IMG/VR virus record: IMGVR_UViG_3300020045_006640
Coordinates: 1-50,447 of that record
Source of the DNA: a virus
Lineage: Duplodnaviria > Caudoviricetes
Strand: one strand, 5' to 3'
Length of the DNA: 50,447 bases
Both the position numbers and the translations under genes were made by a program. Positions 17,781-33,995 of this stretch are shown here, piece after piece. The notes beneath the pieces were generated by a model, which saw only the letters and a list, made by a program, of their open reading frames with translations, ran no database searches and was not told the DNA's origin. Each line of letters begins with the position of its first letter. Positions within the stretch are counted from its first letter, which is position 1.

Positions 17781-19496
17781 ATGCGTCCGATTTTGACACC
17801 GAGCCGTCACGCTGTTCTGTGCAGCGCTTATGCCCTGTCACCAAGCGCAACGCCGACACCTGAACAGATGCGAATGTCGGGCTTGGTCGCGCAAAGCCGT
17901 ATGGCGGTGGTTCCCCCTGGCGCGACCATTGCCAGCGAAAACGTCTCGATTGCCGCCCGTGACAGCCGCACCGCGATCAACGGTGAAGATTTGAACAAGA
18001 TCGACATTGGTTCGCGCGACTGGCACGCCATGATCGGCTATTGGCAGAAAACCAGCGACATTGTTGACGGTGCCGAACGCATGCGCGATCAGCACGCGCT
18101 GTATTTGCCGCAATTCCCCAATGAAAGCGATCCGAGTTATACGTTCCGTTGGAAGAATGCGAAATTCACCAACGTCTATCGCGACATTGTGGAAAATCTC
18201 GCATCCAAGCCGTTTGAACAAGAAGTCACGCTGTCCGGTGCGGTCAACAAATCCAATGACGACACGGTTATTCCGCAAGCGTTTCTGGATTTTGTTGAGG
18301 ACGTTGACGGATCGGGCAACACGCTCAGCACCTTTGCGGCTGATACGTTTTTCGACGGTATCAATTCAACAATCGATTGGATTTTCGTTGATTACTCGAA
18401 TATTGAAGCCGGAACACGCACAGTTGCCGATGAAAAGCGTTTGGGCATTCGTCCGTTTTGGTCGCATGTCAAAGCTGCCAACGTTCTTGAAGTTCGGTCG
18501 AAAGTGATCAACGGAAAAGAACAGATCAACTTTTTCCGCATGCTCGAATTTGAAGCGGACGTGAAACACGTTCGGATTATCGAGCGTGACAACGCTGGTG
18601 TCTGGTGGCACCTTTATCGTGAACTTCCTGCGTCACAGGTCAAATCTGTTCGGTTTGAACTGATTGACAGCGGCGTGATGACTATTCCGGTTATTCCGAT
18701 GGTGCCATTCGTCACCGGGCGGCGCGTTGGTCGATCCTGGCAGTTCCGCCCAATGTTGCGCGATGCTGCTGATTTGCAGATCGAATTGTTTCAGGACGAA
18801 AGCGGCCTGAAGAACATCAAAGCGCTGTCCGGATTTCCGATCCTGACAGCCAATGGTGTCGCACCACCAACCATCGGTTCCGGTGCAAACAAGAAAATCC
18901 AAACAATTCAGGTTGGCCCTGAAACCATCCTGTACGCACCACCGTCAGGCCAGGGCGGCACATCCGGATCGTGGCAGTATATCCAGCCCGACGCTTCCGT
19001 GATGACGTTCCTGCAATCCGATGTGCAAAAGACCATCGATCAGTTGCGCGAACTTGGGCGCAATCCGCTCACAGCACAGACAGCCGGTGTCACCGTCATC
19101 AACAGCGCAACCGCTGCCAAGAAAACAAGCACCACCGTTCAGCTTTGGGCGCTTGGGTTGAAGAATGCGCTTGAAAACGCTCTGGTGATCACCGGTATGT
19201 GGTTGAACATTCCGCAAACGCAGTACGATCCTGAAGTGTTTGTGTTCACCGATTTCGATGTGATGGGCTCGCTTGAAGATTTGACCGCGCTGATTGAAGC
19301 GCGCAAGAACGGCGATATCAGCCGCGAAACGCTTTGGCACGAAATGGTTCGGCGCGGTATCCTGTCCGGTGAATTCGATCCGGAATTGGAAATTGAACGT
19401 ATTCTTGAAGATATGGTTGATTTGACAGTCGATCCGAACGCTGTTGACTTGCCAGACGACGAACCGCCCGCTAACGTGCCGCCTGTGGCGTCATAG
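17781..19496 (+). CDS. Portal protein (DUF4055-type)
   Basis: Follows terL; YLPQFPNES...Y..R, DVDGSGNTL, IPMVPF, ISRETLWHEMVRRGIL. Confidence 0.85.
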   Translation: MRPILTPSRHAVLCSAYALSPSATPTPEQMRMSGLVAQSRMAVVPPGATIASENVSIAARDSRTAINGEDLNKIDIGSRDWHAMIGYWQKTSDIVDGAERMRDQHALYLPQFPNESDPSYTFRWKNAKFTNVYRDIVENLASKPFEQEVTLSGAVNKSNDDTVIPQAFLDFVEDVDGSGNTLSTFAADTFFDGINSTIDWIFVDYSNIEAGTRTVADEKRLGIRPFWSHVKAANVLEVRSKVINGKEQINFFRMLEFEADVKHVRIIERDNAGVWWHLYRELPASQVKSVRFELIDSGVMTIPVIPMVPFVTGRRVGRSWQFRPMLRDAADLQIELFQDESGLKNIKALSGFPILTANGVAPPTIGSGANKKIQTIQVGPETILYAPPSGQGGTSGSWQYIQPDASVMTFLQSDVQKTIDQLRELGRNPLTAQTAGVTVINSATAAKKTSTTVQLWALGLKNALENALVITGMWLNIPQTQYDPEVFVFTDFDVMGSLEDLTALIEARKNGDISRETLWHEMVRRGILSGEFDPELEIERILEDMVDLTVDPNAVDLPDDEPPANVPPVAS

Positions 19497-19577
19497 CGTT
19501 TGGATCACCCGTCAAGGGTTCACGGTCGCGAATTGGCTTTTGGGTTGGGTTCGCTCCAATCCGCCACAATCAACCCG

Positions 19578-19627
19578 TTGCCTGATGGTTGGATGACCTA
19601 GGGCGCATTTGGCCGGATGGCCGGAAA
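19578..19627 (+). promoter_or_regulatory. Twin GGAU-loop hairpin 5' leader element (copy 1, scaffold)
   Basis: GGTT-GGAT-GACC and GGCC-GGAT-GGCC; same layout at 21058. Confidence 0.55.
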
Positions 19628-19636
19628 GACTGAAAT

Positions 19637-20485
19637 ATGTTCAAGACACTGAAGCCCGCTTTGCTCGCATCCGTCGCCCTGGTCACGCCCTACATGCCCT
19701 GGAAGGTCGTCAAGACCAAAGCGGATGACGGCACCGAAATTGAAGTGATCGCCACCAAGGATGGCAACCCCGTCTGGCTGGACAGCAACGGTTCTGAAAG
19801 CGTCATGGCCGGTGACACGGTTTCCCGGCTGAACAAGGAAGCCAAGGACAACCGCGAACGTGCTGAAGCCGCTGAAGGCAAGTTGAAGCCGTTTGAAGGT
19901 CTTGACCCTGCAAAGGCGCGTGACGCGCTTGCACTGGCTGATAAGATCGACAAGAAACAGCTTCTTGACGCTGGCAAGGTCGATGAACTGACGGCACAGA
20001 TCACCAACCAGTTCACGGAAAAACTGACGGCTGCTGAAAAGCGCACCCAGGAACTTACCGGAACGCTCAACCAACGCACGCTTGAAGCACAGTTCGGCAA
20101 GTCCGAATTCGTCAAGGACAAACTCGCGTTGCCGATGGATGTTGCACAAACCTATTTTTCGCGCAACATCAAGTTCGATGACAACGGCAATATGGCGTTT
20201 GAATATTCGGACGGCAACCCGATCATGTCCAAGGAAAAGATCGGTGAAAAGGCCGGTTTTGATGAAGCCATGTCGCTGCTGGTCGAAAGCAATCCGAACC
20301 GTGACGCGCTGCTGAAGGGCGGAAATCACCAGGGCAGCGGCAACAATGGCGGCGGCGGTGGCGGCAAGCCGGGCGTCAAGACCTATCGGCGCAGTGAAGT
20401 TGACAAGATGGCTGTTGACAATCCCCAGGCCATGTCCGCTGCTATGGCCGAAGTGAACGCCGGTACGGCTCAGCTAGTCGAATAA
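19637..20485 (+). CDS. Capsid scaffolding protein (DUF6651-like)
   Basis: DGNPVW.D..G.E, coiled coil, GLDPAKARDAL, LLDAGKVDE, Gly-rich C-terminus; between portal and capsid. Confidence 0.8.
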   Translation: MFKTLKPALLASVALVTPYMPWKVVKTKADDGTEIEVIATKDGNPVWLDSNGSESVMAGDTVSRLNKEAKDNRERAEAAEGKLKPFEGLDPAKARDALALADKIDKKQLLDAGKVDELTAQITNQFTEKLTAAEKRTQELTGTLNQRTLEAQFGKSEFVKDKLALPMDVAQTYFSRNIKFDDNGNMAFEYSDGNPIMSKEKIGEKAGFDEAMSLLVESNPNRDALLKGGNHQGSGNNGGGGGGKPGVKTYRRSEVDKMAVDNPQAMSAAMAEVNAGTAQLVE

Positions 20486-20513
20486 CACGAAATCCCCCTA
20501 GTGGGTTGATCAG

Positions 20514-20557
20514 ACGGTGCGCTAGGTTCGCGGGTTCCTAGCGCACCGTTCTGTTTT
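20514..20557. terminator. Terminator between convergent genes
   Basis: 13-bp stem ACGGTGCGCTAGG/CCTAGCGCACCGT with a T-rich tail. Confidence 0.75.
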
Positions 20558-20807
20558 ACGGCTTCATTCCCCTTTTTGCATAAAGCGCAACACCATCAAA
20601 AATCATGTTGCGCGGAAATTGTTTGTACGTGTGCAGATTGCAACCATACACTTTCGGGATTTCAACAATTACCTGTTCAATGCCGCGCGACGGCTTGACG
20701 TGCGGACTGTGAAAGGCGGCGTGGATCAGTTCGGGCGTTGGTGCCTCAACCGTGCATTGCCCGGTGATCATGTTGCAGATCATGAATGTTGTGTGTTGCT
20801 CGGTCAT
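20556..20807 (-). CDS. Hypothetical protein (antisense cassette 1)
   Basis: MTEQHTTF..., ATGA-coupled to upstream gene. Confidence 0.55.
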   Translation of the reverse strand: MTEQHTTFMICNMITGQCTVEAPTPELIHAAFHSPHVKPSRGIEQVIVEIPKVYGCNLHTYKQFPRNMIFDGVALYAKRGMKP

Positions 20808-20932
20808 GCTGAAAGCCGATCCACTTCCTTTTGCCAAAAGGCAATTTCTTCGGACCATGAAAATTTACCTTTGTACGGCGGTTTTGCCTTGTAATATGCA
20901 AGGCGACTTTCAGCGTATTGCAATTCTGACAT
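20804..20932 (-). CDS. Hypothetical 42-aa protein (antisense cassette 1)
   Basis: Not in the track; TTTGGAG RBS; MSELQYAESRLAYYKAKPPYKGKFSWSEEIAFWQKEVDRLSA. Confidence 0.55.
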   Translation of the reverse strand: MSELQYAESRLAYYKAKPPYKGKFSWSEEIAFWQKEVDRLSA

Positions 20933-20962
20933 GTCGGGCACTCCAAACGGGTTGATTGCTGA

Positions 20963-20991
20963 TCATTACAACCCGTTGCGGGCCGTGTCAA
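20963..20991 (-). promoter_or_regulatory. Repeated early-type promoter P1
   Basis: TTGACA-cggcccgcaacgggttg-TAATGA (17-bp spacer). Confidence 0.7.
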
Positions 20992-21057
20992 GCGTCATCC
21001 CCAAGATTTATGATCACCAACCGTTGACAGCCAACCGTGTTACATAGTAACGATGAT

Positions 21058-21108
21058 TTGCCGTGCTTGTTCGGATGGACAGCGGCGCTAGGGCTGGATG
21101 GTCCGAAA
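21058..21108 (+). promoter_or_regulatory. Twin GGAU-loop hairpin 5' leader element (copy 2, capsid)
   Basis: TGTTC-GGAT-GGACA and GGGCT-GGAT-GGTCC; TTGACA at 21024 upstream. Confidence 0.55.
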
Positions 21109-21147
21109 CGTTGTTAGAAATTCAACACAAGACATGGAACCTTTGAA

Positions 21148-22404
21148 ATGATCCGCACCACCGTTCGTGGCACCCGCGCCCAGGCGCGCAACGCCGTTCT
21201 TCTTTCCGGGCTCGCAATGCCCGCGCTCGCTCTTGGCGCACCGCTCGAAATGACCGGCGCTTATGCCAACACGCTGACCCGTCTGCTTCCCGATCTTTAT
21301 GCCGCGCTGAACTATGTTTCGCGTGAACTGATCGGCTTTCTGCCCGGCGTGAACCGCAACACTGGTGCCGAACGTGCCGCTGTTGGCCAGTCGGTTGTTT
21401 GGCCCATCGCGCCCCAGGCCAACCTTGTCGCCATTGCCCCGGCTATGCAGGTTTCCGAACCGGCTGATCAGGTCATCGGCAACAGTTCGATCACGCTGAC
21501 CCAGGCTTATGCGGCTGAATTCGGCTGGAATGGTGAAGAACAGCGCGGCCTGAACACCGGCCCTGGCTATCTGACGATCAATCAGCAGCAGATGGCCCAG
21601 GCTTTCCGCAAGCTGGCCAACCAGATCGAAAGCGATGTTGCTGGCGGGCTGTATATCGCTGCCTCGCGTGCTTTCGGCACCGCTGGCACGACGCCGTTCG
21701 CAACTGACCTGTCCGCATCCGCTGGCGTCAAGAAAATCCTTCTTGATAACGGTGCCGATCCGTCCGCTCAGTCGCTTGTGATCGACACCACCGCTGGCGC
21801 GAACATGCGCAACCTGCTGAACCTGACGCGCGTCAATGAAGCCGGTTCGCAAATGACGCTTCGCGATGGTGAACTTCTGCCGCTGCATGGCTTCAGCATC
21901 CGTGAAAGCGGTCAGTCGAAGTTCCATACCAAGGGCACCGGCACGCTCTACACCACCAGCGGCACCGCGCTTCCGGTCGGCACCAAGTCCATTCCGCTGA
22001 TCACCGGTTCCGGTACGGTCAAGGCTGGCGACGTGGTGACGTTCGCTGGCGATACGAACAAGTACGTTGTTGGCACGGGCGTTGCGGCTCCTGGCACCAT
22101 CGTTCTGAACGGCCCTGGCCTTCGCGTGGCAATCCCTGCCGCTGCAACCGCCATGACCATCGGCAACAGCTACACGGCCAACGTTGCCTTTGCTCAGTCG
22201 TCGTTCGGGTTCGCCTCGCGTCCGCCCGCAATGCCCGCTGAAGGCGATCTGCGCATGGACAGCTTCCTGATCACGGATGCACGCAGCGGCCTGACCTTTG
22301 AAGTTTCGGTGTGGCCCGGCTCGCGCAAGGTCAAGTATGAAATCGCCCTGGTTTGGGGTTGGGCACCGCTCAACTCGGACGGTATCGCACTGCTTCTTGG
22401 TTAA
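21148..22404 (+). CDS. Major capsid protein (P22 coat-like family)
   Basis: ANTLT.L.P.LY.AL..VSREL.GF, QAFRKLANQIE, TD.RSGLTFEV, WG; strong codon bias; follows scaffold. Confidence 0.88.
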   Translation: MIRTTVRGTRAQARNAVLLSGLAMPALALGAPLEMTGAYANTLTRLLPDLYAALNYVSRELIGFLPGVNRNTGAERAAVGQSVVWPIAPQANLVAIAPAMQVSEPADQVIGNSSITLTQAYAAEFGWNGEEQRGLNTGPGYLTINQQQMAQAFRKLANQIESDVAGGLYIAASRAFGTAGTTPFATDLSASAGVKKILLDNGADPSAQSLVIDTTAGANMRNLLNLTRVNEAGSQMTLRDGELLPLHGFSIRESGQSKFHTKGTGTLYTTSGTALPVGTKSIPLITGSGTVKAGDVVTFAGDTNKYVVGTGVAAPGTIVLNGPGLRVAIPAAATAMTIGNSYTANVAFAQSSFGFASRPPAMPAEGDLRMDSFLITDARSGLTFEVSVWPGSRKVKYEIALVWGWAPLNSDGIALLLG

Positions 22405-22431
22405 TCGTTCCGCCAATACCGATTAACCCTG

Positions 22432-22460
22432 ACCCGCCCGGATTGATCCGGGCGGGTTTT
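22432..22460 (+). terminator. Rho-independent terminator
   Basis: ACCCGCCCGGAT/ATCCGGGCGGGT plus T run. Confidence 0.8.
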
Positions 22461-22461
22461 C

Positions 22462-22620
22462 TTATTCCGCACCAATCCAATCAAACCAGATCATTGCCAT
22501 CCGTTCGGCAGTTGCCTTGGCTTCAAGTTCGGTTGCAAAACGCGGTGCAAAACCGCTGGCATGCTTTGCCGGGTTGCGTGCCCATTCGAGCGGGCGAATG
22601 TGTTCGATGATCTTTTTCAT
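22462..22620 (-). CDS. Hypothetical protein (cassette 2)
   Basis: MKKIIEH..., ATGA overlap. Confidence 0.55.
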   Translation of the reverse strand: MKKIIEHIRPLEWARNPAKHASGFAPRFATELEAKATAERMAMIWFDWIGAE

Positions 22621-23018
22621 TCCAAAATCTCCCAAGCGCGTTTGACCTTGCGCCGTCCATAAACCGAAATCGGTTTGCCGTGATTTTTTGTGTTGTCGGC
22701 AATCAATCCGTCTTTCAGCACGAAATGATGGCCGCTGATATTGATCAGATAGACGCGACCGGGTGCGGTGTGCCATTCCGCAAAACCGTGAACCAACATA
22801 CCACAAGCGCGGCATGGTTTGAACTTGGTTCCAAATGCTGCCATAGCTTGCGGCAACTGATGTGCAAAGGTTCTGCCTTTCCAGTTGGCAGAATGGTTAT
22901 TTTTTTCAACAAACCAATTCCAAACCTTTCGGTACGATTGACCCGTGACGATGGCAACAGCCGTAACACCACAATTCGGCAAGCCAGCAACAAAACCGGC
23001 AGGGCGTTCAAGTGTCAT
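22617..23018 (-). CDS. Putative papain-fold peptidase-like protein (cassette 2)
   Basis: NCGVTAVA...Y..V...SGHHFVLKDG.IAD; AGGAG RBS. Confidence 0.55.
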   Translation of the reverse strand: MTLERPAGFVAGLPNCGVTAVAIVTGQSYRKVWNWFVEKNNHSANWKGRTFAHQLPQAMAAFGTKFKPCRACGMLVHGFAEWHTAPGRVYLINISGHHFVLKDGLIADNTKNHGKPISVYGRRKVKRAWEILE

Positions 23019-23044
23019 GCGGATAACTCCTAATCAATGCAACC

Positions 23045-23073
23045 ACTATACAACCCGTTGCGGGCGCTGTCAA
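23045..23073 (-). promoter_or_regulatory. Repeated promoter P2
   Basis: TTGACA-gcgcccgcaacgggttg-TATAGT. Confidence 0.8.
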
Positions 23074-23152
23074 GCGTCAATCGTGATTTGCAACCTTTGG
23101 TGCCCGTGGTACGTTGACGTTGCATCGTCACTTCAAACAGGGATTTTTCCAA

Positions 23153-23434: not shown

Positions 23435-23507
23435 AAACCAGCCGGGCGGGCTTGACTTAACGGCCAAACCCGCCCATGCCTATCACCCATCCGAAGGATG
23501 GAAACCC

Positions 23508-23987
23508 ATGCCGACATTGATCGCCAAAATTCGCCGTGTTGTGCCTTCTGTGCCATCGGACGGTGAAGAATGGATTATTTCGATTGCTGTCCTGGCAGTC
23601 GGAATTCTTTGGCTGGTGTTCCCTGCGACGTTTTTGCGTCCGGATATGGACGAATTTCTGGATATCATGTCCGCCCGGCTTTGGACAACTTCAGCAATCA
23701 TGATTGGCCTTGTCAGTTGTGTTGCGATTGTTGCAAACAGTCAGGCACCAAGAGTTGCAGGGCTTTTGCGGATTGGCGCAAATCTTGCGCGGTTGACCTT
23801 GTTCGGTGCGTTCATCGGGCGTTCAATTGCAGCATCACAATTCGATCTTTTTTCAGCGTCAGTCGGGATTGTATGGTATTCCGCTTTTTTTGCCTTAGAC
23901 ATGCGGAATGTCATGCAATCATTTGCAGAAACCTTTAATGCTTTCCGGAAAGTCTATCGTGTCAGACCTACTACGTTGGTTCGGTGA
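23508..23987 (+). CDS. Multi-pass membrane protein
   Basis: About four hydrophobic segments. Confidence 0.65.
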   Translation: MPTLIAKIRRVVPSVPSDGEEWIISIAVLAVGILWLVFPATFLRPDMDEFLDIMSARLWTTSAIMIGLVSCVAIVANSQAPRVAGLLRIGANLARLTLFGAFIGRSIAASQFDLFSASVGIVWYSAFFALDMRNVMQSFAETFNAFRKVYRVRPTTLVR

Positions 23988-24330
23988 ACAATCCGAAGCT
24001 GTAAAACTTGCATTGATCGGTTTAACTGGTGGCGTTTCAGCCGGTTTTTGGGCGGCAATTCGTGAATGGAAAAAACCAGTTCTGAATGCGCAACCGGCGG
24101 TTGTGCATACAACGGCAACGGCACCGCGTGCGGCAGATGATCCGGTTTTGCTCTTGCTGAATGAAGTTGCAGCTATGAACGTGTGCCTTGCACAGTTGCT
24201 TGCTGTCACCGTCGCACAGGAACCATCGCAGTCGGCACGGACGGCAAATGTGATTGAAGAAATCACGGCTTTAAAAAGTGAAATTTATTTGCTAAGAAAC
24301 ATCATCAATCAACGTGGAATAGGAATGTGA
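23959..24330 (+). CDS. Membrane-anchored protein with coiled-coil C-terminus
   Basis: GTG start; LALIGLTGGVSAGFWAAI hydrophobic segment. Confidence 0.55.
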   Translation: MSDLLRWFGEQSEAVKLALIGLTGGVSAGFWAAIREWKKPVLNAQPAVVHTTATAPRAADDPVLLLLNEVAAMNVCLAQLLAVTVAQEPSQSARTANVIEEITALKSEIYLLRNIINQRGIGM

Positions 24331-24331
24331 A

Positions 24332-24832
24332 ATGATCCGCGCACTTCTCGCAAGCACCGCATATGTTGCCCTGGTTTCTGCCTTTGCCGACGAAACGCCG
24401 AATTCCGTCCAGCTTCGCAAGATGCCGCCCAATGGCGGCAATCAGGTGAACGGCCCTGAAGTGGTTGAAGTGCTGACGGTCAACACCGATGCCGGTCCGG
24501 TCCGGATCAATGCCAGCGACTATGACCCGGCTGTGCATTCCTTGGTTGATGGCCAGGAAGCACCGGCAACCGATGCCGCTCCTGAAGCCCCTGCCGCGCC
24601 ACCGGCACCGCCCGTCGCTGTTCCGCCTTCCAACGTGCCGCCCAACCCTGCCGCGCCGCCCGCTGGCGTCCCTGCACCGCCCGCACCATCGGAACAGGCC
24701 AAGCCTGTTGAAAAGTTCGTCACCAAAACCGGCAAGAAATTTTTCGTGACGGATGCTGACGGCAAGCCGATCGATCCGGCTCATGAAGGTTACGGCACCG
24801 AAGCCGAAGCCCAGGATGCCGCCAAGGCTTGA
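24332..24832 (+). CDS. Pro/Ala-rich probable virion protein with N-terminal leader
   Basis: MIRALLASTAYVALVSAFAD; VRINASDYDPAVH motif; head-module position. Confidence 0.7.
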   Translation: MIRALLASTAYVALVSAFADETPNSVQLRKMPPNGGNQVNGPEVVEVLTVNTDAGPVRINASDYDPAVHSLVDGQEAPATDAAPEAPAAPPAPPVAVPPSNVPPNPAAPPAGVPAPPAPSEQAKPVEKFVTKTGKKFFVTDADGKPIDPAHEGYGTEAEAQDAAKA

Positions 24833-26082: not shown

Positions 26083-26583
26083 TTACTTGGTGCGGAAAAT
26101 CCGGACGCCGACGCCCTTGTTATCCGTCGCATCAACATCGTAATGCTCGAACTTGCGGGTTTCGGTATACTTGGCGACAGTCTTGCGGGTTTCCTGGCCA
26201 GCCTTGTTCTTGCCGATCTTGACAGTCGTCACAGGGTTGCCGCTGGCGTCCAGTTCGGGCGTGCGGAAATTCTTGTTGAACGTGTGCATGGTCGAATTCA
26301 GCGAACGCTTGGTCTTGCCCGCGACATGGAAAGACTGGCCGACTTCCAGGGCTTCAATCTTTTCCTTGTACGGCGATGCGCCGCCACCCTTGCCACCCTT
26401 GCGGGCGGGAACGGCAATGCCGGTTTCGATTTCGCCAACGGTGCCAGCGGCAACCGGATTGACCGGTGCAGCATTGCCAGCGTCAGCAACCGGCACGGGC
26501 GGAACTTCCGAACCCTTGGCAGCGAACGGAACGGACAGCGCGATCAGCGCGGCGGTGGAAGTGAGAATTGCAGTGCGGTTCAT
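26083..26583 (-). CDS. Basic phage DNA-binding-like protein with N-terminal leader
   Basis: AGGA RBS; MNRTAILTSTAALIALSVPFAA; IETGIAVP...PY....LEVGQSFHV...GVRIFRT; minus-strand terminator-like hairpin and T run at about 26019-26050. Confidence 0.7.
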   Translation of the reverse strand: MNRTAILTSTAALIALSVPFAAKGSEVPPVPVADAGNAAPVNPVAAGTVGEIETGIAVPARKGGKGGGASPYKEKIEALEVGQSFHVAGKTKRSLNSTMHTFNKNFRTPELDASGNPVTTVKIGKNKAGQETRKTVAKYTETRKFEHYDVDATDNKGVGVRIFRTK

Positions 26584-27000: not shown

Positions 27001-27375
27001 ATGGTTGATTTCTATGGTCGAATGCAGGGGATTGCCACAAGCCTGTTGACGCGGTTCAACCAAGGGCTGATCGAGCTTTGCACCATCACGCCCGGCACCG
27101 GCCCGGCGCACAACCCTGGCACACCGTCAACCGCTTGGCGCACCGTCAAGGGCGCGGCGCGCGTGGCGCGTGGTTCGGTATTGCTGGAAACCGGCACGCT
27201 GGTTAAGACTGGCGATTTGCTGGTGACGGTGGCGGTGCTGGCTGATCCTGAACCCAAGCCGGGCGATCTGATCAGCTTTGCGGATCGCACAAAGCCCTGG
27301 CGGGTTATCCGGTTTGACAAGGTGCCAGCAACCGGCACCGCTGCCGCCTGGAAAATCTATGTGAGGCGCGGTTAA
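27001..27375 (+). CDS. Head-closure / head-tail joining protein
   Basis: FY..M...A..LL..F.QG, GTLVKTGDL, PKPGD; position. Confidence 0.75.
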   Translation: MVDFYGRMQGIATSLLTRFNQGLIELCTITPGTGPAHNPGTPSTAWRTVKGAARVARGSVLLETGTLVKTGDLLVTVAVLADPEPKPGDLISFADRTKPWRVIRFDKVPATGTAAAWKIYVRRG

Positions 27376-29243
27376 TGGCTCGCAAGCCGTCGCTGAAAAA
27401 ACAGCTTGAAGCACTGGCGGACAATCTAATTCCGGATGTGCGCAAAGCGTTCATTGCGTCAATTCGTGACGTGTCCGAAACCGCAATGCTCGGTGCGATC
27501 ATTGACGCCATTCGTGAAGGCGATCTGGAAAAGGCATTCCGTGCAACTGGATTGAGCCCGGCTGCAATGCGTCCAGTCACGTCGATGATCGAAAGCGCTT
27601 TTGAAAAGGGCGGTGTCACCGTCAGCAATGCATTGCCGAACATCAACAGTTCAGCCGGTCCGACCATTTTCCGGTTCGATGTTCGCAACAGCCGGGCTGA
27701 AGCATGGTTGCGCGATCAGTCATCCGGGCTGGTGACGCGGATCACCGAACAAACCCGTACCAACATTCAAACCATCGTTCAGGCTGGCATGCGTGACGGG
27801 CGCAACCCGCGCAACGTGGCATTGGATATCATCGGACGGGTTGACCCGGCCACGGGGCGGCGTACAGGCGGCATTGTGGGTTTGACCGATGCACAAGCCA
27901 AATGGGTTGCCAACGCCCGGCGCGAACTGTCTGGCGTGCCCGATGCTGCCTATTTCACACGCGAACGCCGTGATCGACGCTTTGATAAGATCGTGCAACG
28001 TGCGATCAATGACGGCAAGCCGCTGGACGCTGGCAAGGTTGATGCGCTGATCGGAAAATACAGCGACAATCTGTTGCAGTTGCGTGGCGAGACAATCGCA
28101 CGGACTGAAATGCTTCAGGCGCTCGCAAAGTCGCAGGATGAAGCGATCAGACAAGCCATCGACACAGGCACCGTCAATCCGCAACACGTCACAAAGAAAT
28201 GGGATGCAACGGGCGACAAGCGCACACGCGCAAGTCATGCAGCAATGGATGGCCAATCCGTCAAAATGGATGAAGCGTTCACAACGCCCGATGGTGCAAA
28301 ACTGCTGATCCCCGGTGATAGTTCGCTAGGTGCGCCCGCGTCCGAAATCATCAACTGCCGCTGCCGTGTCGATTATGACATTGATTTTCTGGCAGGGCTG
28401 GAAAACGAATTCACGCCCGCACCACCACCAGCACCACCAGTGCCGCCCGCGCCACCAGCACCCAGGCCAGCGCCAACCCCGCAACTGCCGCCCGTGCCAA
28501 GGCTTCCCGATCCGGAACAAACACCTGAACCCGGATTTGCATATGAGAATTTCACGCCATTAAAATCGGTTCCTGAAGCCGTGCAATGGATGAAAGCTAA
28601 CATTGCAGACGCGGTTGAGTTGACCAAAGGTGCCGATCTGGACGGATTGAATGCGATTGCCCAGGCAACGCTAGAAGTCAGCGAGCGTTTCGATCTGCCC
28701 AAAGTGAAATTCATCGGTGATCCGACCAAGGACACACGCGCAAAATGGCGGTTCCCCGCGCGTGCGCAAGCTGCCTACGGTGCAAGTCTTGACGGTTTTC
28801 TGTTCAAAAATCTTGCAACGGACAACGCGAAATTGCTTGAAGCTGGCGTGTACGGAAACAGCCCGGCTTACGGTGCGAAAGAACTGGAAATTGCACGAAA
28901 GGTTATCGAGCAATCAAAGTTCATTGACCCTGAAGTCAGGGAACGGATCAAGCGGCGTGACGGCTTGCAATGGGGCGTGTCAACCGGTTCCCGCAACGTG
29001 ACATATCACGAAATGGGACACCGGTTCGATGCGTTCAATTTCCAAGAACTGAAAATGCGTTCGCCGTCCAAAATGAGCGGTTGGCACTATCTGATCGGAA
29101 AGTACGCATATACGAACGCTGCTGAATATATCGCTGAAGCCTTCAGCCTTTATATGCAGGGCAATGAAGCTGAATACTATCGGATTTATCCACCAATGCT
29201 GAAATTCTTCAAGGAAAAGGATCGCAAAAATGCCCGCAATTGA
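27375..29243 (+). CDS. MuF-like head morphogenesis protein fused to a zincin metallopeptidase domain
   Basis: RGETIARTE, KKWDATGDKRTRASH, PGD..LGAPASEIINCRC; Pro linker; HEMGH ... YAYTNAAEYIAEAF. Confidence 0.85.
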   Translation: MARKPSLKKQLEALADNLIPDVRKAFIASIRDVSETAMLGAIIDAIREGDLEKAFRATGLSPAAMRPVTSMIESAFEKGGVTVSNALPNINSSAGPTIFRFDVRNSRAEAWLRDQSSGLVTRITEQTRTNIQTIVQAGMRDGRNPRNVALDIIGRVDPATGRRTGGIVGLTDAQAKWVANARRELSGVPDAAYFTRERRDRRFDKIVQRAINDGKPLDAGKVDALIGKYSDNLLQLRGETIARTEMLQALAKSQDEAIRQAIDTGTVNPQHVTKKWDATGDKRTRASHAAMDGQSVKMDEAFTTPDGAKLLIPGDSSLGAPASEIINCRCRVDYDIDFLAGLENEFTPAPPPAPPVPPAPPAPRPAPTPQLPPVPRLPDPEQTPEPGFAYENFTPLKSVPEAVQWMKANIADAVELTKGADLDGLNAIAQATLEVSERFDLPKVKFIGDPTKDTRAKWRFPARAQAAYGASLDGFLFKNLATDNAKLLEAGVYGNSPAYGAKELEIARKVIEQSKFIDPEVRERIKRRDGLQWGVSTGSRNVTYHEMGHRFDAFNFQELKMRSPSKMSGWHYLIGKYAYTNAAEYIAEAFSLYMQGNEAEYYRIYPPMLKFFKEKDRKNARN

Positions 29244-29388
29244 TCGCGCCCAAGAACTGTTGAACACTGTGCCGTTACCAGACGATGTTGAAGCGCAATT
29301 GGAAGCGCTTGAAGATGAAGCGACCGATGATGAAAAGCCGCTGTTTGCAGGGCTTTGGGAAGCGCTGTTTGCTTTGCAGAACAGCTAG
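29230..29388 (+). CDS. Small acidic protein (52 aa), candidate immunity/partner of the MuF peptidase
   Basis: Not in the track; overlaps the MuF 3' end; MPAIDRAQELLNTVPLPDDVEAQLEALEDEATDDEKPLFAGLWEALFALQNS. Confidence 0.55.
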   Translation: MPAIDRAQELLNTVPLPDDVEAQLEALEDEATDDEKPLFAGLWEALFALQNS

Positions 29389-29594
29389 GATTTAACAAGA
29401 ACGGGTTGGTATTTCAGCCCGTTCCAAATCCAAAGGTTTGACCAAGCCGGTTCACCGTCAATCGAGCGTGCGGCTTGGCGCAAAGCGTCTGCGTTGTCCG
29501 TTGCGCCGATCATAACCCAACCATAGGCACCGTTAAAATATCGATAGCTGATCAAGCCGGGCGCCGCCAACGGGCGTTCGCTGTGATGTGTCAT
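29385..29594 (-). CDS. Hypothetical protein (cassette 4)
   Basis: TTTGGAG RBS. Confidence 0.65.
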   Translation of the reverse strand: MTHHSERPLAAPGLISYRYFNGAYGWVMIGATDNADALRQAARSIDGEPAWSNLWIWNGLKYQPVLVKS

Positions 29595-29612
29595 GGTGAT
29601 TGCTCCAAATGG

Positions 29613-29639
29613 TTAAGCCCGGAGCGATCCGGGCTTTTT
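29613..29639 (+). terminator. Repeated terminator family copy
   Basis: TTAAGCCCGGagcgatCCGGGCTTTTT. Confidence 0.75.
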
Positions 29640-29641
29640 GC

Positions 29642-29869
29642 TTACATTTCCGAACGCAACGCTTTGTCGGCTTCAGCCAGGGTGTCATGCGATCCGCAAT
29701 AAAAGCCGTTGCGCATGACAGCGGTGAACATGTGAACTTCACCGACAACCTTGTACGTGAACACCTGACCAAAGGGAACGCCGTTCAGGTCATAGTTCCA
29801 ATCGATGCGGGGCGAACCCTTGCGCTTGTTCTTGGTGATCGTGATTTCCTGAACTTCAACGTACTGCAT
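29642..29869 (-). CDS. Hypothetical protein (cassette 4)
   Basis: CCGGAGA RBS directly after P4. Confidence 0.65.
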   Translation of the reverse strand: MQYVEVQEITITKNKRKGSPRIDWNYDLNGVPFGQVFTYKVVGEVHMFTAVMRNGFYCGSHDTLAEADKALRSEM

Positions 29870-29895
29870 TTGATTTCTCCGGGTTGGTGAAATTA

Positions 29896-29924
29896 CATAT
29901 ACAACCCGTTGCGGATCATTGCAA
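29896..29924 (-). promoter_or_regulatory. Repeated promoter P4
   Basis: TTGCAA-tgatccgcaacgggttg-TATATG. Confidence 0.75.
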
Positions 29925-29928
29925 GCGG

Positions 29929-31080
29929 TTATTTCAGATCAATCGGCAAATTTTCCGGAACGATCAACGGAAACAGCGAGCGAACCCGATCTTTGAACGT
30001 GTCGCCTGTGACGCGCTCTTGGTCATCTAAATGTAATTTGGGAATATAGTATGATCCTGGCGGCATGTCATCCGGATCGAATGCGTCCAACGGCGTGCCC
30101 ATATATGACCAAAACGTGCGCAGCCGGGTTTCAACCGCATTCACCGCAAAACAGAAGCGACGAAACATTGACGGGTGCCCAAGAGCGAACGCGACGTTTT
30201 CGATGTTCAGCGGTTCGCCAGCTTCCTTGATCTGCACAGCAATTTGCGAACCCAAACCCTTTCGGGATTTCGACATGCAAACACCGACGATTTCGCAACT
30301 GTAACCGTTGCTCGCCAAAACATCCGCCATTGCAGCAACAGCAGCCGCGCGGATGATTGCGTTTTCGGCTGTGATCCCTGAACTCATGAACAGTTCAACA
30401 AATAGGGTGATGACCTTGCGCCCATCCTGGCGCGGACGGCTGACCATATGCAGCGGGTTACCGCTCAGCATCCGACCGACATTCACACGCCCGCCCGCTA
30501 CGGCAAAGCGGCGCACACGCTGCGTTGCATGATCACCGCTGATAATGTCGCTCGCTTCAAGAGCAAGCGCTGTGCCCTTGTGCCAGCCGTTCCGCGCTAG
30601 GTCTAGCGCCGCGCCCATGCTTGGCGATCCGGACCATTCCAGCTTGCTCCTATCCCAACCGACATTACGCCCATCGGCTCGATCCGTGCTGATGGATGCA
30701 GGGATATTTTCGACAAATTCGATCAAGTCCGGAAACGACCGAAAACCCGCAAACATGGGCGGGTTCTTTGGCGCGAATGCGTTTAGATATGTAATATCAT
30801 TACCATGAACTGACGGTTCCCCGCTGCCGTGCTGAACCGGTTCGGTTTCACGCTTGGGCGAATTAATCAGCCGATCCCAAAAGTCATCATCAACCGGATC
30901 GGGCTTGTCAGCCTTGGGCTGTGCTGGCGTGTTGCTGATCACCAGCCCTGGCTTACCGCGCCAACGTTCAACATTCGTGCCGTCGCGGAATTCCCAAGCT
31001 TTCAGATCGCCATTCCATTTGCCGCCAAAGTCTTTCAGTTCATCTTTGACGGAAAATGTGTTGCCGCTGATCCGGATCAT
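29929..31080 (-). CDS. VWA/CobT-like partner of a MoxR-type ATPase
   Basis: VAGGRVNVGRMLSGNP..M, VITLFVE..MSSG, FALGHPSMFRR; N-terminal GNTF.VKDELK..GGKW domain. Confidence 0.7.
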   Translation of the reverse strand: MIRISGNTFSVKDELKDFGGKWNGDLKAWEFRDGTNVERWRGKPGLVISNTPAQPKADKPDPVDDDFWDRLINSPKRETEPVQHGSGEPSVHGNDITYLNAFAPKNPPMFAGFRSFPDLIEFVENIPASISTDRADGRNVGWDRSKLEWSGSPSMGAALDLARNGWHKGTALALEASDIISGDHATQRVRRFAVAGGRVNVGRMLSGNPLHMVSRPRQDGRKVITLFVELFMSSGITAENAIIRAAAVAAMADVLASNGYSCEIVGVCMSKSRKGLGSQIAVQIKEAGEPLNIENVAFALGHPSMFRRFCFAVNAVETRLRTFWSYMGTPLDAFDPDDMPPGSYYIPKLHLDDQERVTGDTFKDRVRSLFPLIVPENLPIDLK

Positions 31081-31388
31081 TTCGGACCGGCTTCAGTGAT
31101 TTTTCCGCCACGCTTGCGTTCAAAGCATGTATGCCAAGAACCTTTGCCCGACCATTGTTCAGGGTTCATCGCCTGAACAACAACCCGCCGGGTTTCACCG
31201 ATGCCCATCGGCTTGTCTGCAATGGCACGCGCTTCAGCATATGTTTCCAACGGTTGACCGACATTGTTGCAAGCCCATCCGAACGAACCCGTTTGTGAGG
31301 ACTGCCGATAAGAACGCACAACAAAAGGATAATCAGCCGGAACCCAAATCGGGCGGTTCCATGCGTCAGTTTTAATTTCTTTGGTCAT
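31077..31388 (-). CDS. Hypothetical protein (cassette 5)
   Basis: CCGGAG RBS after P5. Confidence 0.6.
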   Translation of the reverse strand: MTKEIKTDAWNRPIWVPADYPFVVRSYRQSSQTGSFGWACNNVGQPLETYAEARAIADKPMGIGETRRVVVQAMNPEQWSGKGSWHTCFERKRGGKITEAGPK

Positions 31389-31413
31389 GTCAATCACTCC
31401 GGTTGATTGCCAA

Positions 31414-31442
31414 TCCTTACCGACTATTGCGGATCATTGCAA
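31414..31442 (-). promoter_or_regulatory. Repeated promoter P5
   Basis: TTGCAA-tgatccgcaatagtcgg-TAAGGA; overlaps the ATPase stop codon. Confidence 0.6.
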
Positions 31443-32555
31443 GAGCTTTTTTCGATCCGTTGCGGACATTCCTTTCAGCACGTAAATTTCTTCAACGCGG
31501 GTGCGCTTCATGCCGCGCGCCAAAGCTTGCGCACCGTTGACGATTGCGCGCGTGCTGACAACGTGGCGAATGTTCTTTTCTTCAACCGTGCGCCGGGTGT
31601 TGGTTACGTATAGATACCAATCGATATTGCCGCCTGAAAGGTGCGTTTCAAGATTGGCGTCATATCCAACCTCAATCACCGCGAACCGGTCAAGGCTTGC
31701 CGCGTCCAATTCATTGCGACCGATATAAACGCGATCAGCGCCCTTGCCGAACGTGTTGGCAGTGCCGATCATCCTGAAGTCACTATGCCGCTTGACAGGC
31801 TGCGTTGCGTCCGGAAACGTCATGAAACCATTTGCCAGGGCACTATTGACGGACAGCAACGCAGCCGCGTCCCAAGCGTCAAGTTCGTCAGCAACCCAAA
31901 CACCGCCCGACTGAAAAGCATTGCGGAATGGCGTTTCATGATAGGTGCCCATGCCATCGACAAAGCCCAACAATTCGTGAGTGTCGAAAACGGTTGACGT
32001 GATGTAAAACGGCAATCCGAGTGCTTTGGAAACCGCCTCGCCAATCGTGGTCTTTCCGCAACCAGCCGGGCCAACCATCATAACGTGATGGCCCATGCTG
32101 GCAACCTGAATGACTTCCGGTGTCGCTTCATGCTGCAAGCCTTCAAGCACTTGCAAACCATCCGGACGCTGAACATGGATCACCATCGGCGGACCGGGCA
32201 ACTTGGCTTCAGCAATTGCTTGTTCAACAATGTTGGTCAAACGCTGTGCCATGTCGTCATCGTCGCGCGCAACAATGTCGCGAACAAGTCTGCTGACAAG
32301 ATCAACATTGATCGGCGCATATCCGGTTTCATGGATCGCCTTCAGCAGCAAAACCATTGGGTCCGTTGATGGCTTTGCCTTTGGCCCGTACTGGTGATAA
32401 AGGTTGGCTAAAGCCGCGCCGGTTGGCTTGGCATTGGGTTCAATATAACCGGCCAACACTGCCCAGGATCGAACCGTGTTCATGTTGTCATCGGTCAAAA
32501 TGAACTTGTTAGCCGGTCCTAAAACCGCTTCAGCGTTCTTTCGGAAATCGTTCAT
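31434..32555 (-). CDS. MoxR/CbbQ/CobS-like AAA+ ATPase
   Basis: GPAGCGKT, VADELD, TANTFG.G, RNELDAASLDRF. Confidence 0.88.
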   Translation of the reverse strand: MNDFRKNAEAVLGPANKFILTDDNMNTVRSWAVLAGYIEPNAKPTGAALANLYHQYGPKAKPSTDPMVLLLKAIHETGYAPINVDLVSRLVRDIVARDDDDMAQRLTNIVEQAIAEAKLPGPPMVIHVQRPDGLQVLEGLQHEATPEVIQVASMGHHVMMVGPAGCGKTTIGEAVSKALGLPFYITSTVFDTHELLGFVDGMGTYHETPFRNAFQSGGVWVADELDAWDAAALLSVNSALANGFMTFPDATQPVKRHSDFRMIGTANTFGKGADRVYIGRNELDAASLDRFAVIEVGYDANLETHLSGGNIDWYLYVTNTRRTVEEKNIRHVVSTRAIVNGAQALARGMKRTRVEEIYVLKGMSATDRKKLLQ

Positions 32556-32613
32556 TGCGGATTGTCTCACGTGTCAGCATCGAAGCGTGCTGAAGATTGC
32601 AGGTTTCTAGCAT

Positions 32614-33039
32614 ATGGGAAAGTTCACTGCAACAGTTGAAAGTTGGGCGGCACGTTCCGAAAAAGCGTTGGGCGCGATCCGGAATGAAAGCGTCAAACGT
32701 GTTATTCAGAAAGCGCAATTGTCGGATGATAAGGGCGGACGCATGCGGGTTGACACAGGGTTTTTGCGATCATCCGGGCAACTCTCGCTGAACGGAATGC
32801 CAACGGGTCCGATCCGTGGCGATGAAAATGCGGCACCCAATCAATACAATTACAATGCGTCACCGGTTGTGCTGATCCTGGCGGGTGCAAAGCTTGACAG
32901 CACGTTGTTTTTCGGATGGACAGCGAACTATGCAGCGTATCGCGAATTTCATGATGGATTTTTGCGGCTCGCTGTTCAGCTATGGCCGAACATTGTCAAT
33001 GACGTGACGGCAGAAATCAAAAGGCGCTATAAATTATGA
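32614..33039 (+). CDS. Neck/tail completion protein (HK97 gp10-like)
   Basis: MRVDTGFLRSS, WTANYA. Confidence 0.75.
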   Translation: MGKFTATVESWAARSEKALGAIRNESVKRVIQKAQLSDDKGGRMRVDTGFLRSSGQLSLNGMPTGPIRGDENAAPNQYNYNASPVVLILAGAKLDSTLFFGWTANYAAYREFHDGFLRLAVQLWPNIVNDVTAEIKRRYKL

Positions 33040-33443
33040 GTATTGAAACAGACGTTGCGGACGCACTTGCGAACCAAGCAATTCTGATTGCGGGTGTGAT
33101 TGGGCTTCCGATCAGCATGCCGAACGTTCCGTTTGAACCGCCAGCCGGTAAATGGCTTGAAGTGCGGCACTTCCGGAACACCAACCTGAACCCGACTTGG
33201 GGCGAAGAAGGTGTGTTGCTTGGCGTGTATCAGGTCAGTGTCATCGATCCTGAACAGGCGGGTGAAATTGCTGCAACGGCCATCGCGTCCCAGGTCATCG
33301 ACGCTTTCCACAAAAATACAACGCTGTATAGCGGTTCAGCGCGTGTCATGGTATATGAAAACCCAACGCTCTTGACAACGGTGCAAGACGCTCACAAGAG
33401 CATTTACCCGGTGTCAATTTCGTATCGCTGCGACAAAGCCTGA
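33036..33443 (+). CDS. Tail terminator-like protein
   Basis: PNVPFEPP...WL, G.YQVSV, PVSISY; precedes tail tube. Confidence 0.75.
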   Translation: MSIETDVADALANQAILIAGVIGLPISMPNVPFEPPAGKWLEVRHFRNTNLNPTWGEEGVLLGVYQVSVIDPEQAGEIAATAIASQVIDAFHKNTTLYSGSARVMVYENPTLLTTVQDAHKSIYPVSISYRCDKA

Positions 33444-33455
33444 AAGGCACAAATC

Positions 33456-33995
33456 ATGAAGAAAATGGCTCTTTTGACCGCTGCCCTTTCGGGCTCAACC
33501 GTCACCCTGGCAACGCCGTTTGCCGACACCAATTCCGGGCGCAAGTTCTATGTTTGCGCCACCGTGCAGCCAACCGATCTGATCGCCAGCGCCTTTGCGG
33601 CCCTGACTTGGGTTGAAGTGAAGGGTGTCGGCAATCTCGGTGAAACCGGCAACAATCAGAACATCCTGACCTATGACGAATGGGCAACCGATGTTGTCCA
33701 GAAGGGCAAGGGCAACACTGACGCCGGTTCGCCCGAACTGGAATGCCGCCGCATCCCGACCGATCCGGGCCAAATTCTCATGCGTTCGCTTGCGCTGTTG
33801 CCCGGCAACTACGCATTCAAGACTGAAGCCAACAACGCACCGGAACCGGGCGGCACCGGAACGATCAAGTACAATCGCGGCATTGTCACCGGTCCGCGCA
33901 ATCCGAACGGACGCGGTGAAGATTTCGAGCTAGATATCTTCACGCTCGGTCTTAACCAGCGTCAGATCACGGTTGAACCGACCGAAGCGCCCTAA
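33456..33995 (+). CDS. Major tail tube protein
   Basis: W.EV.GVGNLGE.G, KGKG..DAGS, DPGQ; position and codon bias. Confidence 0.82.
   Translation: MKKMALLTAALSGSTVTLATPFADTNSGRKFYVCATVQPTDLIASAFAALTWVEVKGVGNLGETGNNQNILTYDEWATDVVQKGKGNTDAGSPELECRRIPTDPGQILMRSLALLPGNYAFKTEANNAPEPGGTGTIKYNRGIVTGPRNPNGRGEDFELDIFTLGLNQRQITVEPTEAP

What the first reader, a model, noticed from the sequence alone, without database searches (positions are those of the whole stretch)
17781..33530. Shared signal-peptide-like leader on portal, scaffold, capsid, tail tube and two more proteins
Seen in sequence: six proteins start with a basic residue, an A(L/V/I)L core usually followed by Ser/Thr/Ala, and (A/P)(F/Y) before A or M. 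Portal MRPILTPSRHAVLCSAY-A (17781). Scaffold MFKTLKPALLASVALVTPY-MPWK (19637). Capsid MIRTTVRGTRAQARNAVLLSGLAMPALALGAPLEMTGAY-ANTLT (21148). Gene 24332 MIRALLASTAYVALVSAF-AD. Tail tube MKKMALLTAALSGSTVTLATPF-ADTN (33456). Gene 26583(-) MNRTAILTSTAALIALSVPF-AA. Each upstream ATG has a purine-rich RBS, and the tail tube has no alternative Met. From recall, homologous capsid and tube proteins begin near ANTLT and ADTN, right after the aromatic residue. Established precedent: the host Prp protease cleaves an F|A leader from S. aureus phage 80alpha capsid and scaffold. Inference: this is a common removable tag for maturation, sorting or membrane-proximal assembly. It may be cut by a host protease (TldD/E is a candidate, or signal peptidase, since AYA/AFA fit AxA) or by a phage peptidase. 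No canonical prohead protease gene is visible.
Basis: partly seen in the sequence, partly recalled or inferred. Interest (0 to 1): 0.85.

Follow-up and report, generated by a model that had tools for sequence, protein, structure and literature searches.

The report
Shared N-terminal leader on virion proteins
This phage and its relatives begin their capsid, scaffold and tail-tube proteins (and a few others) with the same kind of short, signal-peptide-like add-on, most likely a removable assembly tag whose reader or cutter is still unknown.

Summary
All six ORFs begin as quoted, and in each the first ATG has the best Shine-Dalgarno pairing. The same orthologs carry a basic, hydrophobic, small-small-(F/Y/H) leader in Rhizobium phages P106B and RHph_X2_24 and in about 25 uncultured relatives. 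In 8 of 8 genomes examined the capsid, scaffold and tube have it; portal, DUF7303 and the 24332 family have it only sometimes. 57 of 83 capsid homologs start directly at M-ANTLT, exactly where the leader ends. Leaders evolve faster than the mature parts. Their last residues match among unrelated proteins of one phage (0 of 20,000 shuffles), so one common factor probably reads them. Cleavage is inferred, not shown. The tag copies the end of local Sec signal peptides. It is often too short for export, and scaffold leaders break the AxA rule. No Prp, S26/S24 or canonical prohead protease is present. A conserved phage protein with a C39-like fold (1615-2058) is a weak cutter candidate, because distant family members sit in two leaderless phages. 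The closest known system is the Prp-cut F|A leaders of staphylococcal phage 80alpha. This scan has noted similar tags on other phage DNA.

The parts
17781..17831 (+). Leader of the portal protein (17 codons, ends ..CSAY; gene 17781-19496)
   Evidence: PHROG portal profile starts at residue 73. Similar portal leaders occur in P106B, X2_24, L029 and L070/G005 only.
19637..19693 (+). Leader of the scaffolding protein (19 codons, ends ..VTPY, followed by a retained Met; gene 19637-20485, DUF6651)
   Evidence: Leaderless homologs start MKLKLD/MPFKFD. The leader is present in 8 of 8 clade genomes.
21148..21264 (+). Leader of the P22-type major capsid protein (39 codons, ends ..TGAY before ANTLT; gene 21148-22404)
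   Evidence: 57 of 83 homologs start at M-(A/S/P)NTLT or a variant. 19 of 83 carry the ..AP.I(I/G)H..(A/V)Y leader.
24332..24385 (+). Leader of gene 24332-24832 (18 codons, ends ..VSAF); the family is otherwise mostly leaderless
   Evidence: score 13.2. A leader is seen in the window, L023 and L070 only; 8 homologs start directly at M(N/S)D..T..NGPV.
26524..26583 (-). Leader of the DUF7303 protein (20 codons, ends ..SVPF; gene 26083-26583, minus strand)
   Evidence: A leader is present in 4 of 6 family members of the compared genomes and absent in G001 and G002. L039 and L053 also carry one, by eye.
33456..33521 (+). Leader of the tail tube protein (22 codons, ends ..ATPF before ADTNSGRKFYVCAT; gene 33456-33995)
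   Evidence: Relatives read ..F|AN(S/T)NA(A/G)SKLYVCA. The leaderless L039 tube starts MSGTNKKSKLYVCA. Leader in 8 of 8 clade genomes.
1615..2058 (+). Candidate (weak) leader peptidase: 147-aa protein of phrog_5845 with a papain/C39-like predicted fold and invariant Cys23, His106 and His117
   Evidence: It is present in every clade genome where that region is assembled. Distant family members also sit in the leaderless phages Me-ZS1 and AXL3.

Best explanation
This lineage of siphoviruses has P22-type coats and includes Rhizobium phages P106B and RHph_X2_24. It puts a portable N-terminal pro-leader of about 10-26 residues (39 on this window's capsid protein) on its high-copy, self-assembling virion proteins. 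Capsid, scaffold and tail tube always carry it. Portal, DUF7303 and the 24332 family carry it only in some members.

The leader has a basic start, an uncharged hydrophobic stretch, two small residues and an aromatic residue (F, Y, rarely H). The next residue is A, N or D. It imitates the last part of the Sec signal peptides of Rhizobium-type hosts (..S/T/P-A-F/Y-A).

I infer three things. First, it is read in the cytoplasm by one common factor. Second, it is clipped at or next to the aromatic residue before or during assembly, which regenerates the N-terminus that leaderless homologs have. Third, the uncut form helps folding or delays polymerisation, as proposed for the Prp-cut leaders of phage 80alpha.

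Shown: the leaders exist, are translated from the upstream ATG, are conserved in kind, end exactly where leaderless homologs begin, and match each other within a phage. Inferred: cleavage, its site, its timing and the enzyme. The phage's own C39-like cysteine peptidase (1615-2058) is one candidate cutter, at about 0.2. An unidentified host protease is at least as likely.
For: (1) Orthologs in P106B and X2_24 carry the leader on the same five proteins. About 25 uncultured relatives do so too.
(2) In most of these genes there is no other start codon near the boundary. Leader ATGs pair with the anti-SD at -3 to -7 kcal/mol, like the starts of leaderless homologs.
(3) The boundary coincides with the homologs' start: M-ANTLT in the capsid, MKLKLD in the scaffold, MSGTNKKSKLYV in the tube.
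(4) The tag is portable. Within the 24332 and DUF7303 families some orthologs have it and others do not. In the window's scaffold and in the 24332 homologs of L023 and L070 the old initiator Met is still there just after the aromatic residue.
(5) Leader identity is 0.27-0.28, against 0.49-0.61 for the first 60 mature residues.
(6) Residues -3 to -1 match between different proteins of one phage: 0.382 against 0.236 after shuffling, reached by 0 of 20,000 shuffles over 14 representative genomes. For scaffold against tube alone it is 0.515 against 0.247.
(7) Rhizobium phages with a related tube but other head modules (X3_2, TM3_3_9, N28_2) have no leaders, so the tag belongs to the phage lineage.
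(8) Precedent: an F|A leader of 13-14 residues on the 80alpha capsid and scaffold and on the phi13 major tail protein (PMC5744158, passages).
Against: No proteomic or N-terminal data exist for any member in what I could search, so retention of the leader is not excluded. In 80alpha itself, capsid cleavage is dispensable. No single cleavage position suits every known protease rule. No cutter is identified: there is no Prp, S26 or S24, and no prohead protease except an S78 match in 1 of 9 genomes. The C39-like family also occurs in leaderless phages. The within-phage matching test does not fully remove shared ancestry among the 14 genomes, and gene conversion between leader-coding stretches could produce it. 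The window's capsid leader scores only 4.2, below the 95th percentile of the null.
Confidence: 0.5

Rival explanations
1. The leaders are working Sec signal peptides cut by the host signal peptidase I. The precursors are taken to, or threaded into, the inner membrane, so that assembly starts at the membrane, and LepB releases them.
For: The window's six leaders have an n-h-c layout, and five of the six have A directly after the aromatic residue (A/P-F/Y-A). The window's own lysis-region secreted protein ends ..TPFAAFA|QD. By my eye, 9 of 23 signal peptides of SBP_bac_5 proteins in a Phyllobacterium genome end (F/Y/H)-A. Other lineages of this capsid family carry long, truly membrane-like N-terminal segments (L012, L031, L041, L091, L093, L103).
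Against: Capsid, scaffold, portal and tube must act in the cytoplasm. In the 41-leader training set all 10 scaffold leaders have N or D after the aromatic residue, and 7 leaders have V at -1. Three window leaders have P at -1. Several relatives have leaders of 10-13 residues, while the real host-type signals run to 22-40 residues. Portal and capsid leaders are weakly hydrophobic, with a median 8-residue Kyte-Doolittle mean of 1.0-1.5. Orthologs of DUF7303 and of gene 24332 occur with and without the leader, which is odd for an export signal. No signal-peptide predictor was available here.
Confidence: 0.12
2. The leaders are kept in the finished proteins. They would act as an uncut tag for chaperone recruitment, for transient membrane or partner binding, or for hydrophobic self-association that nucleates assembly.
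For: No cutter was found. Within-phage matching would also follow if leaders bind each other or one non-proteolytic receptor. The capsid leader has its own conserved AP.I(I/G)H motif, which suggests a structural contact. In 80alpha the scaffold leader is needed for assembly but its cleavage is not.
Against: The leader ends exactly at the homologs' N-terminus, and its presence varies between orthologs. That argues it is not part of the mature fold. If kept, each capsid and tube subunit would carry an extra 10-39 hydrophobic residues, by inference into the capsid interior and the tube lumen.
Confidence: 0.22
3. It is an artefact. Upstream in-frame ATGs were mistaken for starts, or a loose motif arose by chance.
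For: In the window the capsid, scaffold and portal have internal Met codons. The window's capsid leader scores below the 95th percentile of the null.
Against: Most relatives have no start codon at all near the boundary. The leaders are conserved in kind over about 25 genomes at 50-60% capsid identity. Leaderless homologs have an in-frame stop a few codons upstream of their start. The first ATG has the best SD pairing in 6 of 6 window genes.
Confidence: 0.03

Closest known systems
Prp-processed N-terminal leaders of Staphylococcus phage 80alpha capsid and scaffold (and the same motif on the phi13 major tail protein); PMC5744158, passages read
   Same: A short N-terminal leader is shared by non-homologous virion proteins. 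It runs to 13-14 residues in 80alpha and 13 residues on the P106B tube, portal and DUF7303. It has a hydrophobic run ending in Phe followed by Ala, and sits on capsid, scaffold and tail tube. The phage has no prohead protease of its own.
   Different: No Prp (PF04327) was found in the window or in 5 Hyphomicrobiales genomes. The known hosts are Rhizobium and Sinorhizobium, not Firmicutes. The leader resembles a Sec signal peptide end, not (from recall) ribosomal protein L27. Cleavage is unproven here.
Sec-type signal peptides cut by signal peptidase I
   Same: A basic start, an uncharged hydrophobic core and an (A/S/T)-(F/Y/H)-A end, like the local signal peptides.
   Different: The leaders sit on cytoplasmic virion proteins. 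They are often far shorter: tube 10-23, scaffold 13-22 and capsid 12-26 residues in relatives, against 22-40 for the host-type signals. Scaffold leaders lack the small -1 residue.
T4 capsid-targeting sequence and gp21 cleavage of head proteins (recalled, not read here)
   Same: A common N-terminal tag on several head proteins that is removed on maturation.
   Different: There is no S77 (gp21-type) protease: 0 of 9 genomes above the cut-off. The motif differs, and the tail tube is tagged too.
C39 double-glycine leader peptidases (ComA, PCAT1, LahT), as the nearest fold of window 1615-2058
   Same: The predicted fold matches: Z 9.1 to PCAT1 and ComA, 8.7 to LahT150. The size is about 140 aa, with a conserved Cys at a helix start and a His on a strand. 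These enzymes remove N-terminal leaders.
   Different: No Pfam match in 0 of 5 members. The leaders end in an aromatic residue, not Gly-Gly. The gene lies in the replication module. Family members occur in leaderless phages.

Membership tests
Prp / L27-type leader system (MEROPS C108) | Short N-terminal leader ending in Phe, cut before Ala, shared by capsid and scaffold | tested here: met
   The sequence pattern ..(F/Y)|A occurs on the capsid, tube, portal and DUF7303. The scaffold has (F/Y)|(N/D). Cleavage itself is not shown.
Prp / L27-type leader system (MEROPS C108) | A Prp protease (PF04327) in the host or the phage | tested here: not met
   0 matches in the window. 0 of 5 Hyphomicrobiales genomes above the cut-off. 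The true host genome was not available.
Prp / L27-type leader system (MEROPS C108) | Leader copies the N-terminal extension of host ribosomal protein L27 | not tested
   Host L27 was not fetched. From recall, proteobacterial L27 has no extension.
Sec signal peptide / signal peptidase I substrate | n-h-c layout with small residues at -3 and -1 of one consistent site | tested here: not met
   Cutting after the residue that follows the aromatic fits 24 of 41 leaders. Cutting before the aromatic fits at most 33 of 41 at -1 (counts from the column tallies). Scaffold leaders have N or D after the aromatic in 10 of 10 training rows.
Sec signal peptide / signal peptidase I substrate | Length and hydrophobic core sufficient for export | tested here: inconclusive
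   The window's leaders run 17-39 residues and look adequate. Relatives go down to 10-13 residues. No SignalP-type tool was available.
Sec signal peptide / signal peptidase I substrate | The protein works outside the cytoplasm | not testable with these tools
   By established knowledge, capsid, scaffold, portal and tube assemble in the cytoplasm.
Canonical prohead-protease maturation (S78, S49, ClpP-like, S77) | A prohead protease gene in the phage | tested here: not met
   S49 and ClpP: 0 of 9 genomes. S77: 0 of 9 above the cut-off. S78: 1 of 9 (G017 only), none in the window.
Peptidase C39 (for window 1615-2058) | Papain-like C39 fold | tested here: met
   AF2 model with pLDDT 85.2. VIA-align Z 9.2 (PeiR), 9.1 (PCAT1), 9.1 (ComA, rmsd 2.9 over 113 residues) and 8.7 (LahT150). 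The Foldseek E-values are weak, 0.016 or higher.
Peptidase C39 (for window 1615-2058) | Sequence membership (Pfam model) | tested here: not met
   0 of 5 members match any peptidase family at E up to 10. A profile search against PDB sequences found nothing relevant.
Peptidase C39 (for window 1615-2058) | Conserved catalytic Cys, His and Asp/Asn | tested here: inconclusive
   Cys23 and His106 are invariant in 5 of 5. Position 118 is Asp in 4 and Asn in 1. Cys23 sits at the start of helix 22-31 and His106 in strand 104-111. Their geometry was not measured.
P22-type coat protein (PF11651) | Pfam and PHROG match of the capsid protein | tested here: met
   PF11651 at 40.2 bits, above the cut-off of 24. 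phrog_283 at E 1.1e-87.

The most novel reading that the evidence does not exclude
A lineage of protease-less siphoviruses with P22-type coats matures both head and tail parts by a new route. Leaders that copy the host's signal-peptide ends are read in the cytoplasm and clipped by the phage's own small C39-like cysteine peptidase. One enzyme would then time the polymerisation of capsid, scaffold and tail tube.
Probability: 0.18. Interest if true: 0.85.

Novelty: new variant of a known kind. Interest (0 to 1): 0.68.

Why it matters
Phages with P22-type coats and a separate scaffold are textbook examples of maturation without proteolysis, and tail tubes are not known to need processing. A shared, portable leader on capsid, scaffold and tube in phages of Gram-negative hosts would extend the single known case, staphylococcal Prp. 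It would point to a general way of keeping abundant self-assembling proteins in check. It also matters for annotation. Signal-peptide predictors will probably call these virion proteins secreted, and start-codon callers may trim them. P106B and RHph_X2_24 are cultured phages of harmless rhizobia, so the question can be tested directly. My searches of the held library found no paper describing this. Paywalled papers, including the P106B genome paper, and supplements were not visible.

Tried and rejected
Candidate partners that did not hold up:
- MuF C-terminal HExxH domain (27375-29243). It gives a sub-threshold ATLF match, 21.4 bits against a cut-off of 27.4. The domain is absent from the 343-369 aa MuF proteins of the other seven genomes.
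- The antisense AAA_5 plus DUF7192 pair. DUF7192 is in only 1 of 5 complete leader genomes.
- A membrane plus coiled-coil protein just after the capsid gene. It is seen in the window, L002, L003, L029 and perhaps L039, but not in L017, L026, L056, L063 or L037.
- Gene-content contrast between leader and leaderless loci. It only recovered the clade's own structural genes.

Protease searches that found nothing: Prp, S26 and S24, and S78, S49, ClpP and S77. Pfam was run on 36 window ORFs and PHROGs on 26, and neither gave a peptidase family apart from the ATLF hint. Large replication and tail ORFs were not scanned one by one.

C39-like protein. Complex prediction of A1 with scaffold residues 1-50 gave 'no answer', with scores of 0.00 and 0.00; this is no evidence either way. 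Three contigs with weak C39-like matches but no capsid or tube homolog (G013, G020, G021) showed no clear leader set. The apparent absence in G004 arises because the contig ends before the syntenic spot.

The AF2 model of the tube was unusable, with pLDDT 44.6, so I could not place its N-terminus.

DNA-level motif. In P106B, GCATTTGCAAAC recurs at three leader ends, but the window uses varied codons. Close pairs show 14 synonymous-only and 36 amino-acid-changing codon differences out of 97 compared codons. The signal is therefore at the peptide level.

Genome contigs gave only leaderless or long-leader prophage capsids, so no host could be named for the window.

Literature searches gave nothing on this clade. 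I read only passages of PMC5744158. Supplements were closed.

Full report
What the window is. The 50,447-base window is a nearly complete (93%) IMG/VR phage record. Its capsid protein is of the P22 type: PF11651 and phrog_283. The nearest named phages are the Rhizobium phages vB_RglS_P106B and RHph_X2_24 of the genus Rigallicvirus, at 53-57% capsid identity.

Check of the observation. In all six genes the first ATG has the strongest pairing with the anti-Shine-Dalgarno sequence, -3.2 to -6.1 kcal/mol. Internal in-frame starts are at -2.5 or weaker. PHROG profiles start at capsid residue 40 and scaffold residue 23, so these are extensions. I built a position matrix from 41 leaders of other phages, using only the leader part. 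It places the six at 13.2, 8.4, 7.3, 7.1, 6.1 and 4.2. The 99th percentile of 229 internal windows is 7.0. Only 3 of the other 57 genes reach 7.0. Inside the window alone the case is moderate. The capsid leader scores lowest, and the portal, at 7.1, only just clears the 99th percentile.

The decisive evidence is comparative. In P106B and X2_24 the orthologs of portal, scaffold, capsid, tube and the minus-strand DUF7303 gene all begin with M-(K/R), a hydrophobic run, and (S/T)-A-(F/Y), followed by A or N. Among 83 capsid homologs (the window plus 82 loci), 19 have this leader and 57 start directly at M-(A/S/P)NTLT or a variant of it, often with an in-frame stop a few codons upstream. Five have a different, long, membrane-like leader, and 2 are unclear. 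Leaderless scaffolds start MKLKLD or MPFKFD, while leader-bearing ones read ..(F/Y/H)|(N/D)..GWKLD. Tubes read ..F|AN(S/T)NA(A/G)SKLYVCA, and the leaderless L039 tube starts MSGTNKKSKLYVCA. Most leader-bearing genes have no other start codon near the boundary. In eight genomes compared in full, the scaffold, tube and capsid carry the leader in 8 of 8. For this count the G002 tube was read by eye and the window's capsid was included although it fails my strict filter. DUF7303 carries it in 4 of 6, the portal in about 4 of 8, and the 24332 family in the window and G005 only. Seven further contigs add more cases.

Properties of the tag.
- It is short and fast-evolving. The median length is 17-21 residues and the range is 10-26 in relatives. 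Leader identity is 0.27-0.28, against 0.49-0.61 for the first 60 mature residues.
- It is portable. Orthologs of DUF7303 and of gene 24332 occur with and without it. In the window's scaffold and in the 24332 homologs of L023 and L070 a Met, presumably the old initiator, follows the aromatic residue.
- It is matched within a phage. G005 has Gly before the aromatic in six proteins, five tabulated and the portal. G001, L029 and L053 have P-x-V or V-V. P106B has (S/T)-A. The window has Pro in three. Identity of residues -3 to -1 between different protein families of one genome is 0.382 against 0.236 after shuffling genome labels within families, and 0 of 20,000 shuffles reach it. For scaffold against tube alone it is 0.515 against 0.247, reached by a fraction of 0.0004. 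Shared ancestry among the 14 genomes is not fully removed by this test.
- It belongs to the phage lineage, not to the host. Three Rhizobium phages with a related tube but other head modules have none.

What it resembles. The end of the tag copies local Sec signal peptides. The window's own lysis-region secreted protein ends ..TPFAAFA|QD. By eye, 9 of 23 signal peptides of a Phyllobacterium genome end (F/Y/H)-A. Those run to 22-40 residues, though, while several leaders are only 10-13. The 10 scaffold leaders in the training set have N or D after the aromatic residue. Portal and capsid leaders are weakly hydrophobic. The tagged proteins work in the cytoplasm. I therefore rank true export and signal peptidase I low.

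The closest known system is 80alpha. Prp cuts F|A and removes 13 and 14 residues from capsid and scaffold, and the motif recurs on the phi13 major tail protein (PMC5744158, passages). Prp is absent here.

Search for a cutter. There are no S26 or S24 peptidases. S49 and ClpP are absent from all 9 genomes, S77 gives nothing above its cut-off, and S78 appears only in G017. The MuF-fused HExxH domain is unique to the window among the 8 genomes compared. Among the clade's core genes, the 147-aa protein at 1615-2058 (phrog_5845, no Pfam match) has invariant YGDC.R.C, VPH, His106 and H-x-P. Its confident model (pLDDT 85.2) is nearest to the leader peptidase domains of ComA, PCAT1 and LahT, at Z 8.7-9.1, and to other papain-like enzymes. 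It is present wherever that region is assembled in the clade and absent from 5 leaderless or long-leader genomes. However, distant members of the family sit in Microcystis phage Me-ZS1 and Stenotrophomonas phage AXL3, whose virion proteins have no leader. The gene also lies in the replication module. I give it about 0.2 as the cutter.

Verdict. The reading as a common, probably removable tag is the best supported, but it remains unproven. The enzyme is unknown. Earlier notes of this scan describe similar tags with other motifs in other phage clades. I used two of their leads, testing within-phage matching and searching for S26. These notes are not independent evidence.

Noticed in passing
window 27375-29243 (+): The MuF-type head protein carries an extra C-terminal domain of about 240 aa with HEMGH. 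It gives a sub-threshold Pfam hit to the lethal-factor-type zincin family (21.4 bits, cut-off 27.4). The MuF proteins of the seven other genomes are 343-369 aa and lack it. It is probably a MuF-fused cargo or effector domain.
   Followed up: partly
window 1615-2058 (+); L199 40945-41385 (-); L200 38691-39158 (-): The small papain/C39-like protein family (phrog_5845, no Pfam) has 698 relatives in the protein collection. Members occur in unrelated named phages: Xanthomonas Mallos, Caulobacter Sansa, Stenotrophomonas AXL3, Microcystis Me-ZS1, mycobacteriophages and jumbo Pseudomonas phages. It is usually encoded among replication genes, and its function is unknown.
   Followed up: partly
L012, L031, L041, L044, L047 (viral contigs); L091, L093, L103, L112, L125 (prophages): Other lineages of the same capsid family carry a different, long N-terminal extension of 50-70 residues. 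It has one or two membrane-like hydrophobic segments and ends ..(V/I)(L/F)G before ANTLT. Where the scaffold gene lies in the fetched stretch, it has no leader.
   Followed up: no
window 39023-41632 (+): A large tail protein starts with a long uncharged hydrophobic run (MPFLVPAFAAVTAF|ASTAL..). It scores as high as the best leader (13.2) but lacks the basic start.
   Followed up: no
window 29929-32570 (-): A MoxR/CbbQ-like AAA_5 ATPase and a DUF7192 protein are encoded antisense inside the virion module. The same is seen in P106B and X2_24, but DUF7192 is in only 1 of 5 other complete clade genomes.
   Followed up: partly
window 23908-24330 (+); L002 6415-6966; L003 17272-17718: A small protein with one membrane segment and a coiled coil is encoded downstream of the capsid gene in some clade members but not all.
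   Followed up: partly
G017:C1:1222-1563 (+): One leader-bearing relative has an HK97-type S78 protease match (52.6 bits) far from its head genes. The other 8 genomes have none.
   Followed up: no
L002 (P106B) 1777-1794, 17863-17880, and minus strand near 12120: In P106B three of five leader ends are encoded by the same 12 bases, GCATTTGCAAAC, which contain the palindrome TTTGCAAA. The window shows no such DNA-level repeat.
   Followed up: partly
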